Part shown: positions 42,438 through 47,282 of the stretch, in pieces
Numbering within the stretch: position 1 is the stretch's first letter
Layout of the letters: the number at the start of each line of letters is the position of its first letter
Assembly: GCA_015061725.1 (NCBI GenBank)
Contig: SUVX01000001.1
Coordinates: forward strand, 64,940 to 128,939
Direction: 5' to 3'
Origin: Lentisphaerota bacterium
GTDB taxonomy: Bacteria; Verrucomicrobiota; Lentisphaeria; Victivallales; Victivallaceae
Length of the DNA: 64,000 nt
Notes under the pieces: model-generated
Databases searched by the model: none
What the model was told of the DNA's origin: nothing
What the model saw: the letters and a program-made list of their open reading frames with translations, nothing else
Position numbers and translations under genes: made by a program

Positions 42438-43175
42438 ATGAAAAACATCAAAAAACATCTGCTGTTACTGCTGATCGGATTTGTATTTTCAACTTTTGCC
42501 GATTTTGATTTCGGCCTTCCGTCTGAAACCGATCTGCACTTGAAAAAACAGGGGTTTTCGCTGGGATACAGTTACAAATACCGTCAGGCTGTCTGGGTGG
42601 CATACACGCTGGCTTCAGAAAATCTGCTGACACGGCAAGTCCGGAGAAAAGATAACTTCAGGGCGGATCCTGCAGTGAAAAAACGGCCTGTGCGCCCCAA
42701 AGATTATGCCAGAAGCGGCTATGACAAGGGACATCTTGCTCCGGCGGCGGATATGACATATTCTGTAACAAGTATGAACAATTCTTTTTTGATGACAAAT
42801 ATTTCACCGCAAACACCGGGTTGCAACCGGGGAATCTGGAAAAGACTTGAAACTCAAGTGCGCCGATGGGCTCTCAGAGAAGAAAAGCTTTATATTATTA
42901 CAGGACCGGTATTTTCCCGCAGACCTGCCAGAATGAAAAAATCAAGGCTTCCTGTACCGGTTGCATTTTACAAAGTGATTCTCGACCTGACTCCGCCGAT
43001 GAAAATGATCGGATTCATTGTTCCGAATGAAAGCAGCAAACGAAGACTGGCAAGTTTTTCGGTATCCGTTGACGAAGTTGAACGTCTTACCGGATATGAT
43101 TTTTTCAGCGATCTTGATGATGACATCGAAAACCGTCTGGAAAAAGTAACTGACTGGCAAAGCTGGATGAAATAA
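42438..43175 (+). CDS. secreted DNA/RNA non-specific endonuclease (NucA/EndoG family)
   Basis: 245 aa. Signal peptide MKNIKKHLLLLLIGFVFSTFA and the catalytic block GYDKGHLAPAADM...NISPQ. Confidence 0.85.
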   Translation: MKNIKKHLLLLLIGFVFSTFADFDFGLPSETDLHLKKQGFSLGYSYKYRQAVWVAYTLASENLLTRQVRRKDNFRADPAVKKRPVRPKDYARSGYDKGHLAPAADMTYSVTSMNNSFLMTNISPQTPGCNRGIWKRLETQVRRWALREEKLYIITGPVFSRRPARMKKSRLPVPVAFYKVILDLTPPMKMIGFIVPNESSKRRLASFSVSVDEVERLTGYDFFSDLDDDIENRLEKVTDWQSWMK

Positions 43176-43177
43176 AA
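42933..43177 (+). repeat. left copy of a ~245-bp direct repeat (last ~80 codons of the nuclease gene)
   Basis: Aligns by eye with 47034-47282 at about 92% identity. Similarity starts at ATGAAAAAATCAAGG and ends just after the stop codon. Confidence 0.85.
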
Positions 43178-43346
43178 GGTCGTAAATTGACAAAGTAAAT
43201 GCACCCTGCTCTAAAAATGAGCGTGCGTTTAGTTTTACAATCGACATGCGAAAATTTTTCGACATACAGATTCAGGGGTATTTGCAATTTTTTGTTTTGC
43301 GTGATACATTACAAAGTAATATATTCATCAGCAACGGGAGATAAAC

Positions 43347-43664
43347 ATGGAACAGCCAATTATAGCAAATGGTGGATTGCAGTATGTGCCGCAAATTGCG
43401 GTGCAGTATGTGTATCTGGACTTTGACGGGGAATTAACCAGTTACAACGGAGAAATTCTGACCGTTGACAATGTGGAAGTGCAGGACTCTTCTTTGACAG
43501 AGGAACGCATTGCCAATATTGTTGCAGAACTCAATGCCAAATATGCGGATATTCCACCATCTACATTGGCAAAACAGAAGCCTTTGCTCCCTACGGCAAC
43601 TTTGCCGGATTGGCAGAAACCATTGACAAGGGCAACAAAATCTCAACCGACAAAGCCTTTGTGA
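43347..43664 (+). pseudogene. N-terminal fragment of the large RTX/beta-helix protein gene, separated from the main ORF by a frameshift
   Basis: GGGAGA Shine-Dalgarno plus ATG. MEQPIIANGG...VYLDFDGELTSYNG...AELNAKYA then runs out of frame. The +2 frame continues from ~43550 as YSTIYIGKTEAFAPYGNFAGLAETIDKGN into the 1114-aa ORF. Confidence 0.6.
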
Positions 43665-46600
43665 TGCTGGATTCCACCGCCAGTAACGAAACAATAATTT
43701 CCACCATTTCCCACGAAACCGACCACCTTCTGGGTACTCTCGATCACGGCGGCGAAGGCCTCGCCGCCTATGCGGTCTCCAAGACATATTCCTCCGGTTA
43801 TCACAACTCCATGTTAATTATTTCCGGAGATGATATTACGCTGACCGGATCTGCAGCCACCTACTCATCTATCATTTCCTCCGGAGGCCGCTTGACTCTC
43901 AGCAGCGGCGGCAGTGCCGACACTGTGGAAATCAGAAACGGCGGTACTTTGATTCTGGGAGCAGGCGGCAAGTTGTACATGGGAGTTATTTCCTCCGGCG
44001 GAAGTATTTATACTGCATCCAGCGGCACATATCATATCGGTGCTCTGGATATCCAGAACGGCGCAATCGTCTGGGTTTCCGGCGATGCACGACTGAGTGA
44101 TTTGACAGTTTATTCCGGCGGAGTATTATATTTATCATCCGGCGTCACTTCCTGCAGTCGGCTGGAGGTCAGTTCAGGGGGGAGTGTTACCGTTTTCAAC
44201 GGTGCAATTCTTTCCGGGGCTCAGTTATTGGAATCCAAGGCCCGGCTGCTCGTAAGCAGCGGAGGATCGGCAATCAATACCAGCCTCTATGCAGGTACGA
44301 CTGTAGATGTGTATCAAGGCGGAGTTGTTACAGATGTACGCCGTATGAATGGGTGGTCGTCCGACTGCCAGATCAATGTCAGAGGCGGCAGCCTGCTGAA
44401 TACGATGTTATACGCTACTGTTGCAGATATCTATTCCGGGGGAATCGTATCGGATGCCCGGGTTATGAGTGGCATGCTCCGGGTATACAATGGCGGTTTG
44501 GCAAACAGTATAACGCTTTCAAAGGGTGGTTATGCAGTGTTTGCCGATTATGCCAGGGGCAGTAAAGTTACTGTACAATCCGGCGGTCATCTGGATATTT
44601 ACACTACCGGAACTGTGATTTCTGATCTTGAAGTTGAAAGCGGCGGGATTTTACAGGGATTTTTGATCGGGGCGACACATAAATTCAGTTCGGCAAGCGG
44701 TGCGGAAATCAAACCATTTTCCAATGTTTCCATAAAAAGATCTTTGATGACTGTTTCCAGCGGCAATGTTTCCGCGTTGGGGGCAGTCGTAAGTTCGGCA
44801 ATAATCCATATTTCCTCCGGCGGCAAGGTCAGTTCTCTTGAATTGGCAAAAGGCGCAAAATGCCATATCAAAAGCGGCGGGATCGTTTCCAGCGGCGAAG
44901 TAAAAAACAGCAACACCACCGTCGTTGTTTCCTCCGGCGGTCAAATGACAGGCGGGACACTTGCAGCTTCTGCAACGCTGGCAGTTTCCGGCGGCACGAT
45001 CCGCAATATAAGCGCAACGGATTGGTCCAAAATCAATCTTCGTTCCGGCGCAACAGCTGAAAATGTAACCGTTTGGGACGACAGCAAGTTAACAATTTCA
45101 GCCGGAGCATCTGCTTTTCTGCCCATGATTCAGGCAGAATCAGGTTATATCGACGTCCAGGGAGGAATGTGTGTCTCGGCACTGGTCAACAACGGTGGAG
45201 CTTTCGTTATAACCAGCAGCGGTGTTGCCAGTAAAACCACTATTCAGGGCAACGGTCGCGGCGGAGTGTATGCTGGAAAATTTATTGATACATCCGTTAC
45301 CAATGGTACATTGTCTGTCAACAGCGGCGGAAATGTCATCAATACCTCACTGGGGTATAACGGAAAGCTTGTCGTTTACTCAAACGGAACAGCTTCAGAT
45401 ACTTACATTGATATGGGCGGAACTGCGATCGTGGGCGGTCCATCAATTATTCAGTCTTCCGGAAAAATGATTGACACAACCGTAAATTCCGGCGGCAAAC
45501 TCTCTGTCGCCAAAGGCGGTACTGTTGAAAACGTGACCGTAAATTCCGGCGGCAGCATGTATATCGACGGCGGAGGAACCTTTACCGGAGAATTGACCAT
45601 TGCTGACGGAGGATGGGTTGAAGGCAACGGTGCGATATTTGATCTGGATATCAGTGATCGTTCCACTGAAGATAACGCTTTGATCAACGTTATTTCATTT
45701 ATTGTCGGCTCGCCGGAATTTTTGATTACGGTGGATACCGATCAGGCATACGGCGTTTACAAACTTGCTTCCGGAGCCGGCGGCAGAGATTTTACCTTTA
45801 CCGTCCGGAATCAGTTGGGAGGCACGATCGGTTCCGTTTCCACGGCCGATACAGTTGCATATAATTTCAACAAGAGAGATTACAAAGTCAGCAATATAGG
45901 GGGAGAACTTACCTTGACAGTCAGTGCGTCAAGCCCCGGGTTGAGCGGCGATGCTGCCGGTGTCTCATGGAAAAATCTTCCCGGCACTCATTTCGTTGTG
46001 GACTATTCCACAAACGACTACACCAATACCTTGCGTGTCGGTGTTGCCGGCAGTTCACTGGATACCTACGGTTTGCCTGGAGGAACTTATCAGTGGCAAG
46101 TCAAAGAGGTCAATGGAGAATTCATTGCGGGGGATGATATTGTTTCTGATAATACATCTGCTCCGCAGCGATATGTTTCTGATGATGACCGCCAGACGGA
46201 CCTTTTCTTTGCCAGAGCCCATGGTGTCTGGGATGCAGGTTACTCAGCAGAACATCAGGGACGGCTCGGTACATGGAACGGTACAACCGAAAGAGTTTCC
46301 CTTGCGGGCAAAAACAAAATTTCCGATGTGTTTATTGCTTCCGGGGATACCAATATTCTGGTTTTGACGGATGACAGCAACGGTGATGCGTTGTTTTTGG
46401 ATGATGTTTATACTTCGTTCGGCAAGGATGCCGCAAGAATAGCTCACATTGATGAGATCCGCGCCGGTGCCGGTGATGATATCATCGACCTGACCAGTCA
46501 GCAGTTCGCTTACAGCGGCATGGGGATGAATATTTACGGCGGGCTTGGTAATGACATCATTTGGGGTAATACAGGCAGCAATAAATTATTCGGTAATGCA

Positions 46601-46954: not shown

Positions 46955-46976
46955 AAATCCACCTTAAAAAACTGAA

Positions 46977-47020
46977 ATGCTCAAACTGGCGTACTATGAT
47001 GTTGGTTTGAGCATTTTTTT
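46977..47020 (+). terminator. rho-independent terminator after the RTX gene
   Basis: ATGCTCAAAC-(18 nt)-GTTTGAGCAT followed by T7. Confidence 0.65.
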
Positions 47021-47033
47021 ACGAGAGTTGCTT

Positions 47034-47282
47034 ATGAAAAAAATCAAGGATTCCCGTACCGGTTGCATTTTACAAAGTGATTCTCGATTTGACTCCGCCG
47101 ATGAAAATGATCGGGTTCATTGTACCGAATGAAACCAGCAAGCGCAGACTGGCAAGTTTTGCAGTATCCGTTGACGAAGTTGAACGTCTTACCGGATATG
47201 ATTTTTTCAGCGATCTTGACGATGATATCGAAAACCGTCTGGAAAGATTACATGACTGGCAAAGCTGGATGAACCAATAAAA
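47034..47282 (+). repeat. right copy of the ~245-bp direct repeat
   Basis: About 92% identical to 42933-43177. One extra A in the leading A-run and a 3-nt indel before the stop. Confidence 0.85.
47038..47280 (+). pseudogene. orphan 3' fragment of a NucA-family endonuclease gene
   Basis: Translates as KKSRIPVPVAFYKVILDLTPPMKMIGFIVPNETSKRRLASFAVSVDEVERLTGYDFFSDLDDDIENRLERLHDWQSWMNQ, preceded by an in-frame TGA. No catalytic domain. Confidence 0.8.

What the first reader, a model, noticed from the sequence alone, without database searches (positions are those of the whole stretch)
42933..47282. RTX/beta-helix protein gene is bracketed by ~245-bp direct repeats of the nuclease gene 3' end (cassette-like insertion without an integrase)
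Seen in sequence: 42933-43177 (the last ~80 codons plus stop of the intact NucA-family gene) and 47034-47282 (an orphan 3' fragment preceded by an in-frame TGA) align at about 92% identity. Similarity starts abruptly at ATGAAAAAATC and ends 2 nt after the stop codons. The 3.86 kb between them holds only the RTX protein gene with its own promoter region and terminator. The right copy abuts the convergent CE4 gene.

Inference: this is the footprint left when an element integrates into the 3' end of a gene and brings a surrogate 3' end (att-like duplication). It could also arise by homologous capture of a cassette from a diverged strain. No integrase, transposase or terminal inverted repeats are present, so the mechanism is unclear.
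Basis: partly seen in the sequence, partly recalled or inferred. Interest (0 to 1): 0.6.

Follow-up and report, generated by a model that had tools for sequence, protein, structure and literature searches.

The report
Gene-end duplication flanking recombined RTX gene
A 4.1-kb stretch holding one large secreted-adhesin-like gene sits between two diverged copies of the end of a nuclease gene. Related metagenome sequences indicate that the cell's own recombination put it there, at a gene-swapping hot spot, and no integrase or other mobile-element enzyme is present.

Summary
Window 42933-43177 and 47034-47282 are direct repeats, about 92% identical, and are the only two copies in the genome. The left copy ends an intact Endonuclease_NS gene. 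The right copy is an orphan fragment 36 bp from a convergent CE4 gene.

The repeats bracket one promoter-to-terminator RTX/AIDA beta-helix gene. Here that gene is broken by a 43-nt deletion.

Metagenome contigs of close relatives show:
- the empty site, nuclease then CE4 (L064, L071/L072);
- nuclease directly followed by the MFS gene (L069);
- nuclease then an intact RTX gene with no orphan fragment (L081);
- a reciprocal junction (L082, one short scaffold).

L064 and L082 are mirror-image hybrids of the two repeats and switch in the same 20-nt interval.

Upstream of that interval the repeats differ at 9 synonymous and 3 conservative codons. They therefore diverged as working alleles, not by decay of a local duplicate.

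The orphan fragment begins exactly at a 13-nt identity (ATGAAAAAATCAA) with the 3' flank of a paralogous RTX gene elsewhere in the genome.

Best reading: homologous recombination in the nuclease gene plus one microhomology join, in a locus resembling a "minimal mobile element". No recombinase is involved. This is a natural example of known processes and is moderately interesting.

The parts
42438..43175 (+). Intact DNA/RNA non-specific endonuclease gene (245 aa). It is the conserved left anchor of the variable locus.
   Evidence: PF01223, E = 2e-53. The exact protein occurs on at least 23 metagenome contigs. Synteny Topo-DUF748-UDPGP-FtsW-602aa-nuclease is kept in relatives.
42933..43177 (+). 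Left repeat: nuclease codons 166-245, the stop and 2 nt.
   Evidence: Its 5' part (to 43124) matches the empty-site allele L064 at 197/201.
42933..42945 (+). 13-nt word ATGAAAAAATCAA inside the nuclease gene. It is identical to the 3' flank of a paralogous RTX gene (own genome, contig C63:748-760).
   Evidence: Only 4 of 5000 shuffles of the 32-nt flank share a word this long with the nuclease gene.
43143..43175 (+). Last 11 nuclease codons of end type (i), ...EKVTDWQSWMK*. This end type travels with the RTX module.
   Evidence: The same end sits upstream of RTX in L066, L068, L073-L080 and L082. End type (ii), ERLHDWQSWMNQ*, goes with CE4, and type (iii), EQTCNWQSWMK*, with MFS directly. L081 carries a hybrid end (ERLHDWQSWMK*) before its RTX gene.
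43178..43346 (+). Upstream and promoter region of the RTX module.
   Evidence: Homology with the RTX locus of another species (G021), which lies in a different genomic context, starts at about 43247-43282.
43347..43664 (+). 5' part of the RTX gene (105-aa ORF). It leaves frame after a 43-nt deletion at 43548/43549.
   Evidence: Alignment with the intact genes of G021, L075 and L081. The same split is seen on the metagenome contigs.
43610..46954 (+). Main RTX/AIDA beta-helix ORF (1114 aa from the first start codon). It has an HExxH motif, AIDA-type repeats and a C-terminal RTX block.
   Evidence: PF16168 and PF00353. NCBIfam AIDA-I, Ag43 and O_hepto_targRPT repeats on the intact homologue.
46974..47020 (+). 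Terminator of the RTX module: a 19-bp stem followed by a T-run.
   Evidence: Fold of -23 kcal/mol, z = -4.9. Homology with L081 (RTX present, no orphan fragment) ends here.
47021..47033 (+). Spacer ACGAGAGTTGCTT, part of the RTX-type 3' flank and not of the nuclease gene.
   Evidence: The identical spacer follows the paralogous RTX gene on C63. L082 has it with 1 mismatch.
47034..47282 (+). Right repeat: an orphan nuclease 3' fragment. It has one extra A in the A-run and end type (ii).
   Evidence: Its 5' part is 199/201 identical to the fragment in L082. Its last 35 nt are identical to empty-site allele L064, and the CE4-side flank beyond is 98-100% identical to L064.
47226..47246 (+). Interval in which the hybrid alleles L064 and L082 switch between left-like and right-like states. 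It corresponds to 43124-43144 in the left copy.
   Evidence: Table of 20 diagnostic sites.
47317..48117 (-). Convergent CE4 polysaccharide deacetylase gene. It is itself a variable module.
   Evidence: PF01522. It is absent in L069/L070, where homology stops at 43178 and resumes at 48217.

Best explanation
The two repeats are two alleles of the nuclease gene's 3' end. They came to lie 4.1 kb apart when an RTX/beta-helix gene module, complete from promoter to terminator, was recombined into a hypervariable site just downstream of the nuclease gene. The host's general recombination did this, not an element-encoded recombinase.

Shown:
- Close relatives carry at least five different arrangements between the nuclease gene and the MFS gene. 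One of them is the empty site.
- The repeats diverged under purifying selection as parts of working genes.
- Each downstream module is linked to its own version of the last 11 nuclease codons.
- The orphan copy starts exactly at a 13-nt identity between the RTX-type 3' flank and nuclease codons 166-170.
- Hybrid alleles corresponding to both reciprocal products of an exchange between the repeats are found.
- The RTX gene itself moves between species.

Inferred:
- The right junction was made once by an illegitimate join at the 13-nt microhomology, while the left side was held by homology in the nuclease gene. This resembles homology-facilitated illegitimate recombination, except that it duplicated 245 bp of recipient DNA instead of deleting it.
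- Afterwards the structure spread, was lost, or looped out or duplicated by ordinary homologous recombination within the repeats and the flanking genes.

In this lineage the cargo gene has since been broken by a 43-nt deletion.
For: Repeat real, and only 2 copies in the genome.

Alternative arrangements in relatives:
- Empty sites: L064 is 98.3% identical on both flanks, with nuclease, 36 bp, then CE4. L071/L072 are a second lineage.
- L069/L070: nuclease then MFS. Homology stops at 43178 and resumes at 48217.
- L081: nuclease, an intact 1221-aa RTX gene, terminator, then AAA/PDDEXK_9 genes, with no orphan fragment.
- G012 and L065: other downstream DNA.

No recombinase, transposase or terminal inverted repeats in 43178-47033. 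No RNA family hit.

Codon comparison of the repeats. Across 42942-43142 there are 9 synonymous and 3 conservative codon differences. In the last 11 codons there are 5 non-synonymous and none synonymous. Every right-copy variant is shared with some full-length allele.

Microhomology. Own-genome contig C63 has a paralogous RTX gene end, then the same terminator, the same spacer, ATGAAAAAATCAA, ATGATA, and then an IS256-family element end. No nuclease similarity follows the 13-mer. Chance of such a word is about 8e-4.

Reciprocal hybrids:
- L064 is left-like at 10 of 13 sites, then right-like at 7 of 7.
- L082 is right-like at 13 of 13, then left-like at 7 of 7.
- Both switch within 43124-43144.

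RTX module mobile. It is 98.7% nt identical between L081 and species G021, and 93% between the window and G021. Neighbouring core proteins of G000 and G021 are 49-65% identical in amino acids.

HFIR as a known process with 3-10-bp joins: PMC6382021.
Against: - The 13-mer on C63 could be the stump of a former nuclease fragment rather than a pre-existing flank. Only 6 nt (ATGATA) separate it from an IS end, and no second IS-free copy of that flank was found.
- As described in the literature I recall, HFIR usually deletes recipient DNA. Here it would have duplicated 245 bp.
- L082 is a single 551-bp scaffold. Because full-length alleles exist that share an 82-nt identical stretch with the right copy, an assembly chimera cannot be excluded.
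- Relative to L064, the right copy's 5' part is 5.5% diverged, while its last 35 nt are identical and the CE4-side flank beyond is 98-100% identical. If L064 is ancestral rather than a deletion product, a single crossover with a circle explains this more simply.
- Recombination in this population is so frequent that the order of events cannot be recovered.
- Natural transformation is unproven in this organism. comEC and dprA homologues are present but occur in most bacteria.
Confidence: 0.6

Rival explanations
1. Campbell-type insertion-duplication. A 4.1-kb circle, or a tandem unit, made of the RTX module plus one nuclease 3' fragment entered an empty-site chromosome (L064-like) by a single reciprocal crossover inside the 245-bp homology, between 43124 and 43144. 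Under this view the left repeat's 5' part and the right repeat's 3' part are native. The left repeat's last 11 codons, the RTX gene, the spacer and the right repeat's 5' part are foreign. The microhomology join would still have created the circle's own junction earlier.
For: All four forms expected of such an exchange are seen, and the switch interval is the same. These are the empty site L064, the junction L082, and the left and right repeats of the window. The right repeat's 5' part is 199/201 identical to L082 but only 190/201 to L064. Its last 35 nt are identical to L064 and the flank beyond is 98-100% identical. The repeat spacing of 4102 nt would be the size of the unit.
Against: - L064 could equally be the deletion product of an exchange between the two repeats, which would make the argument circular.
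- L064 differs from the left copy at three clustered sites (43033-43043).
- In L082 the last ~100 nt before the terminator are of the C63 paralogue type, not the window type.
- L082 may be an assembly chimera.
- No circle was observed.
- The RTX gene also sits in loci without any nuclease fragment, in G021 and L081.
Confidence: 0.25
2. Footprint of a site-specific integrative element (prophage or island remnant) that targets the nuclease gene's 3' end and supplies a surrogate end. The model is e14 or phage 21 at icd. The integrase would have been lost later.
For: A direct repeat of a gene's 3' end brackets foreign DNA, the target gene stays intact, and empty sites exist.
Against: - No integrase, excisionase or phage gene lies in or next to the insert.
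- No relative shows a longer element.
- No match was found in viral contigs.
- The repeat's start is explained by a 13-nt identity with an RTX flank.
- The same RTX module sits in unrelated loci.
Confidence: 0.05
3. Old local duplication of the nuclease 3' end, followed by neutral decay of the orphan copy. The RTX gene would have been resident all along.
For: Two copies lie in the same orientation on one contig.
Against: - Empty sites exist in relatives 98% identical in the flanks, which is much closer than the 8% divergence between the repeats.
- Upstream of the divergent end, differences are 9 synonymous to 3 conservative codons. An orphan copy decaying neutrally would not show that.
- The orphan copy encodes the same residues as the species G012 protein (P0003) from KKSR through DDDIEN.
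Confidence: 0.03
4. Assembly artefact: a mis-join of two strains' alleles in a metagenome-assembled genome.
For: The genome is a 154-contig assembly, and the locus is polymorphic in the population.
Against: The same arrangement, with both repeats and the split RTX gene, occurs on at least 23 contigs. They come from JGI, ENA and Logan assemblies of different samples and are up to 138 kb long.
Confidence: 0.01

Closest known systems
Homology-facilitated illegitimate recombination (HFIR) during natural transformation (Acinetobacter baylyi, Streptococcus pneumoniae, Pseudomonas stutzeri; de Vries & Wackernagel 2002, Prudhomme et al. 2002, Meier & Wackernagel 2003, as summarised in PMC6382021)
   Same: Foreign DNA is held by homology on one side only, here the nuclease gene. 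The other end is joined at a short identity, here 13 nt. No element-encoded enzyme is needed.
   Different: The join lies upstream of the anchor, so 245 bp of recipient gene was duplicated rather than deleted. At 13 nt the identity is longer than the 3-10 bp reported. Transformation is not demonstrated in this uncultured Lentisphaeria. The event is inferred from footprints only.
Minimal mobile elements of Neisseria (Saunders & Snyder 2002; cited in PMC1538595)
   Same: A fixed pair of conserved genes (nuclease and MFS) has different gene cassettes between them in different strains. There are no mobility genes. Alleles of the flanking gene are mosaic, as exchange by homologous recombination would produce.
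   Different: This locus also carries a partial duplication of the flanking gene. Each cassette is linked to its own version of the flanking gene's last 11 codons. One cassette, the RTX gene, is also found at unrelated loci in other species.
Campbell-type insertion-duplication of a non-replicating circle (the laboratory 'insertion-duplication mutagenesis' geometry)
   Same: The insert is flanked by direct repeats of the targeting fragment. Each repeat is a hybrid of the two parents, and reversal gives an empty site plus a circle junction. All four forms are seen here.
   Different: This would be a natural event with an 8% diverged homology arm. The circle itself was not observed. It also still needs an earlier illegitimate event to attach the gene fragment to the cargo.
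Prophages that integrate into a protein gene's 3' end and carry a surrogate end (e14 and phage 21 at icd of E. coli; from my own knowledge, not checked here)
   Same: A diverged duplicate of the gene's 3' end brackets the inserted DNA, and the target gene stays functional.
   Different: Those elements encode an integrase and use a defined core site. Here there is no recombinase, and the locus behaves as a general recombination hot spot.

Membership tests
Site-specific integrative element (prophage, ICE or island at a gene 3' end) | Element-encoded tyrosine or serine recombinase | tested here: not met
   The only long ORFs in 43178-47033 are the two RTX ORFs, and Pfam finds only AIDA and HemolysinCabind. 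No related contig shows extra genes between the repeats.
Site-specific integrative element (prophage, ICE or island at a gene 3' end) | Short identical core att sequence at both ends, distinct from the general similarity | tested here: inconclusive
   Similarity is spread over 245 nt with 20 differences, and the longest identical run is about 56 nt. The hybrid alleles switch in one 20-nt interval, but that interval is simply the last conserved stretch before the divergent gene ends.
Site-specific integrative element (prophage, ICE or island at a gene 3' end) | Empty site in relatives | tested here: met
   L064, and L071/L072.
Homology-facilitated illegitimate recombination | Homologous anchor on one side of the foreign DNA | tested here: met
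   The left side of the insert is continuous nuclease-gene homology. The RTX module carries its own nuclease end type.
Homology-facilitated illegitimate recombination | Illegitimate join at a short microhomology between donor and recipient | tested here: met
   The 13-nt word ATGAAAAAATCAA is shared by the RTX-type flank (C63) and nuclease codons 166-170, exactly at the orphan fragment's start. No similarity follows it. Chance is about 8e-4. Caveat: the word could be a remnant.
Homology-facilitated illegitimate recombination | Uptake of DNA by natural transformation, and RecA dependence | not testable with these tools
   comEC and dprA homologues are present, but they also occur in 10 of 14 control genomes.
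Campbell-type insertion-duplication | Flanking repeats are reciprocal hybrids of a chromosomal copy and a copy carried by the incoming unit | tested here: met
   Diagnostic-site table: L064 is left 5' plus right 3', and L082 is right 5' plus left 3'. The direction of the reaction is not resolved.
Campbell-type insertion-duplication | Circular or tandem intermediate | tested here: inconclusive
   L082 (551 bp) has the predicted junction.
Minimal mobile element-like hot spot | Conserved flanking genes with alternative cassettes in different strains | tested here: met
   At least five arrangements follow the nuclease gene, and the MFS side was reached in the window type and in L069/L070.
Minimal mobile element-like hot spot | No mobility genes or terminal repeats of a transposon | tested here: met
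Transposon / IS-bounded unit | Terminal inverted repeats, target-site duplication and a transposase | tested here: not met
   No inverted repeats lie at the insert ends. The IS256-family copies are elsewhere, on C63, C21, C16 and other contigs.

The most novel reading that the evidence does not exclude
The 4.1-kb unit, the RTX gene plus a 245-bp piece of a conserved host gene, behaves as an integrase-free mobile cassette. The host-gene fragment would serve as a portable homology arm. Homologous recombination between the repeats would loop the unit out as a circle, and after transfer it would re-enter any genome that has the nuclease gene. Both the empty-site form and the junction form are present in ruminant-gut metagenomes. 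If general, this would be one route by which the large RTX/beta-helix gene family spreads among these Lentisphaeria.
Probability: 0.15. Interest if true: 0.6.

Novelty: new member of a known kind. Interest (0 to 1): 0.35.

Why it matters
This is a well-documented natural footprint, in an uncultured gut or rumen Lentisphaeria, of gene gain without any mobile-element machinery. It shows a conserved gene used as a homology anchor, a microhomology join, and the resulting repeats that allow loss and re-gain.

Footprints of this kind are mostly known from laboratory transformation experiments. Here the occupied site, the empty site, the cargo without the scar and, with a caveat, the reciprocal junction can all be read from metagenomes.

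It also shows that a large surface or secreted RTX/beta-helix gene crosses species boundaries in this genus: 98.7% nt identity against core proteins that are 49-65% identical. That is relevant to how such variable surface-protein families turn over.

It does not reveal a new kind of mobile element.

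Tried and rejected
- Junction pattern ACGAGNGTTGCTTATGAAAAAA in JGI metagenome contigs: two hits, both unrelated to the window.
- Junction pattern in GTDB genome contigs: none.
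- RTX N-terminus in viral contigs: none.
- Rfam on 42000-48500: nothing.
No read-level test of excision or of L082 was possible.
- Genome-wide scan of G000 for direct repeats of 120-1500 nt spaced 0.8-25 kb apart: 97 pairs. Those inspected were paralogues or segmental duplications, and none brackets another RTX paralogue. C100 has a pair spaced 4103 nt, which proved to be tandem paralogous genes and a coincidence.
- GC content of the insert (0.48-0.52) against the flanks (0.38-0.47): not used as evidence, because the Gly/Ser-rich repeats of the RTX gene set its composition.
- Similarity between the C63 flank and the nuclease gene beyond the 13-mer: none above shuffled controls.
- de Vries & Wackernagel 2002 (PMC122324): not held.
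The 13-kb contig of allele P0141 and the contigs downstream of the P0128-type alleles could not be examined.

Full report
**Observation**

The window holds a direct repeat at 42936-43171 and 47038-47273, 93% identical without gaps. With flanks aligned, similarity runs from ATGAAAAAA (42933 / 47034) to 2 nt past the stop codons (43177 / 47282). The right copy has one extra A in the A-run. BLAST gives 91.8% over 245 nt with a spacing of 4102 nt. The 3.85-Mb genome has only these two copies.

The left copy is the end of an intact Endonuclease_NS gene (42438-43175, PF01223, E = 2e-53). The right copy is an orphan that still scores as PF01223. It lies 36 bp from the stop of a convergent CE4 deacetylase gene at 47317-48117.

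Between the repeats there is only one gene, with AIDA-type beta-helix repeats and a C-terminal RTX block. It has its own upstream region and a strong hairpin plus T-run at 46974-47020. No inverted repeats, recombinase or transposase are present, and there is no Rfam match.

The arrangement is not an assembly artefact. At least 23 contigs from independent JGI, ENA and Logan assemblies carry it.

The RTX gene is broken. Against three intact homologues it lacks 43 nt at 43548/43549, which splits it into a 105-aa ORF and the main ORF. The split is present in the metagenome contigs too. An earlier first-stage note had recorded the frameshift.

**What relatives show**

Names attached to related proteins place the organism among uncultured Lentisphaeria.

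Species-level genomes of the genus are too distant to be useful here. Their nuclease proteins are 48-66% identical, apart from G012 at 91% on a 1.5-kb contig. Metagenome contigs of closer strains were decisive. All keep the upstream synteny Topo-DUF748-UDPGP-FtsW-602aa-nuclease, but what follows the nuclease gene varies:

| Contigs | Arrangement after the nuclease gene | Calls |
|---|---|---|
| L069/L070 | MFS gene directly. Homology to the window stops at 43178 and resumes at 48217 | 34, 35 |
| L064 (98.3% identical on both flanks); L071/L072 (92% / 96%) | 36 bp, then convergent CE4.
| Window type | RTX, orphan fragment, CE4, MFS | 18, 20 |
| L081 | Intact 1221-aa RTX gene, its terminator, then AAA-ATPase/PDDEXK_9 genes. 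Homology to the window ends just after the terminator (BLAST to 47017) and there is no orphan fragment | 38-41, 76 |
| L068, L073-L080 | Intact start of RTX; the contigs end inside the gene | 33, 37 |
| G012, L065 | Other, unrelated downstream DNA | 11, 29 |

The site is therefore a hot spot where cassettes are exchanged.

The last 11 nuclease codons come in several versions, each linked to what lies downstream:
- ...EKVTDWQSWMK* goes with RTX.
- ...ERLHDWQSWMNQ* goes with CE4.
- ...EQTCNWQSWMK* goes with MFS directly.

L081 carries a hybrid of the first two (ERLHDWQSWMK*) in front of its RTX gene, so exchanges also occur within these codons.

**The RTX gene moves on its own**

In species G021 the RTX gene is 93% nt identical to the window's copy, starting about 65-100 nt upstream of the start codon. 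It lies at a different locus, after pepD, a tRNA gene and repeated GIY-YIG gene fragments.

L081's copy is 98.7% identical to G021's over 3.5 kb. The neighbouring core proteins of G000 and G021 are only 65% (UDPGP) and 49% (FtsW) identical. The promoter-to-terminator module has therefore crossed species recently.

**Nature of the two repeats**

From 42942 to 43142 the copies differ at 12 codons. Nine differences are synonymous and three are conservative (L/I, S/T, S/A). In the last 11 codons all five differing codons, counting the stop, change the residue.

The orphan copy encodes the same residues as the G012 protein (P0003) from KKSR through DDDIEN. Every state of the orphan copy is also found in some full-length allele.

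The two copies therefore diverged as parts of working genes in different lineages and were later brought together. This excludes a local duplication followed by decay.

**The right junction**

The own genome has a second copy of the terminator and spacer, downstream of a paralogous RTX gene on contig C63. The sequence there is ...GAGCATTTTTTTACGAGAGTTGCTTATGAAAAAATCAAATGATA, followed by the end of a multi-copy IS256-family element.

The spacer ACGAGAGTTGCTT therefore belongs to the RTX-type flank. After the spacer, that flank shares exactly 13 nt (ATGAAAAAATCAA) with nuclease codons 166-170 and nothing beyond. The orphan fragment begins at this word.

A shared word of that length arose in 4 of 5000 shuffles of the flank, before even requiring that it sit at the repeat boundary. 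[quoted passage not shown] The difference is that 245 bp of the recipient gene was duplicated here rather than deleted.

The alternative is that the 13-mer on C63 is a stump of a former nuclease fragment. That needs two illegitimate events and is less economical, but it is not excluded.

**The repeats recombine**

Twenty sites distinguish the two copies.
- The empty-site allele L064 is left-like at 10 of the 13 upstream sites (197/201 identical) and right-like at all 7 downstream sites.
- A 551-bp scaffold, L082, carries an RTX-type gene end, terminator, spacer, nuclease fragment and RTX upstream region.
- L082's fragment is right-like at all 13 upstream sites (199/201) and left-like at all 7 downstream sites.
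- Both hybrids switch between 43124 and 43144.

These are the two reciprocal products, or the two substrates, of one crossover between the repeats: an empty site, and a circle or tandem junction.

The direction of the reaction cannot be read from these data.
- If L064-like and L082-like molecules were the substrates, the window arose by Campbell-type single-crossover integration.
- If the window type came first, they are a deletion product and a duplication or circle product.

L082 is a single short scaffold. Some full-length alleles share 82 identical nt with the right copy, so a chimeric assembly path cannot be ruled out. L064 cannot be such a chimera because its switch lies within a 19-nt shared stretch, and L071/L072 confirm the empty arrangement independently.

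**Verdict**

This is a cassette-like insertion without an integrase that carries a surrogate gene end. The mechanism is general recombination at a hot spot resembling a minimal mobile element (PMC1538595) plus one microhomology join. It is not an att-type site-specific event.

No other RTX paralogue in this genome is bracketed in this way. The case is a clear natural example of known processes in a little-studied phylum and is of moderate interest. The more novel reading is that the gene fragment serves as a portable homology arm for an integrase-free mobile cassette. That reading rests mainly on L082 and remains unproven.

Noticed in passing
window 43347-46954; L081:3695-7360; L047 (G021:C124) 11322-14744: The RTX/beta-helix gene is 98.7% nt identical between a contig of the window's species group (L081) and another species of the genus (G021). 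Core proteins next to it are 49-65% identical. In G021 it lies at an unrelated locus. This points to recent transfer between species of a single promoter-to-terminator gene with no mobility genes.
   Followed up: partly
window 43548/43549: A 43-nt deletion relative to the intact homologues removes about 14 codons (..AQNVIFVTEKPQNAE..) and shifts the frame of the RTX gene. It is present in all contigs of this lineage, so the cargo is a pseudogene or an N-terminally truncated protein here.
   Followed up: yes
L047 (G021:C124) about 10620-11230: Upstream of the RTX gene in G021 lie a tRNA gene and two tandem copies, about 245 nt each, of a segment containing the first codons of a GIY-YIG-type gene (MFYTYILRS...). 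This is another partial gene duplication next to the same cargo.
   Followed up: no
G000 contig C63:767-1150 (L094); also C21, C16, C84, C24, C8, C104: A multi-copy IS256-family element (Transposase_mut, PF00872), whose end reads GGTAGTGTCCGGTATTTTGCGCAC. On C63 a truncated copy sits 6 nt after the 13-nt word that follows a paralogous RTX gene.
   Followed up: partly
L081:2792-3528: In the lineage with an intact RTX gene and no orphan fragment, the nuclease gene itself is split into 117-aa and 127-aa ORFs. It may be a frameshifted pseudogene or a sequencing error.
   Followed up: no
L071:4600-6206: In the second empty-site lineage, homology to the window stops at 48062, inside the 5' end of the CE4 ORF. 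It is followed by other small ORFs, one with a weak DUF6431 hit, instead of the MFS gene. The hot spot is therefore variable on the CE4/MFS side as well.
   Followed up: no
G000 contig C46:27521-28299 and 31949-32728: A 780-nt direct repeat, 90% identical and spaced 4.4 kb apart, duplicates two whole genes around an inserted block. It was seen in the genome-wide repeat scan and is not related to RTX genes.
   Followed up: no
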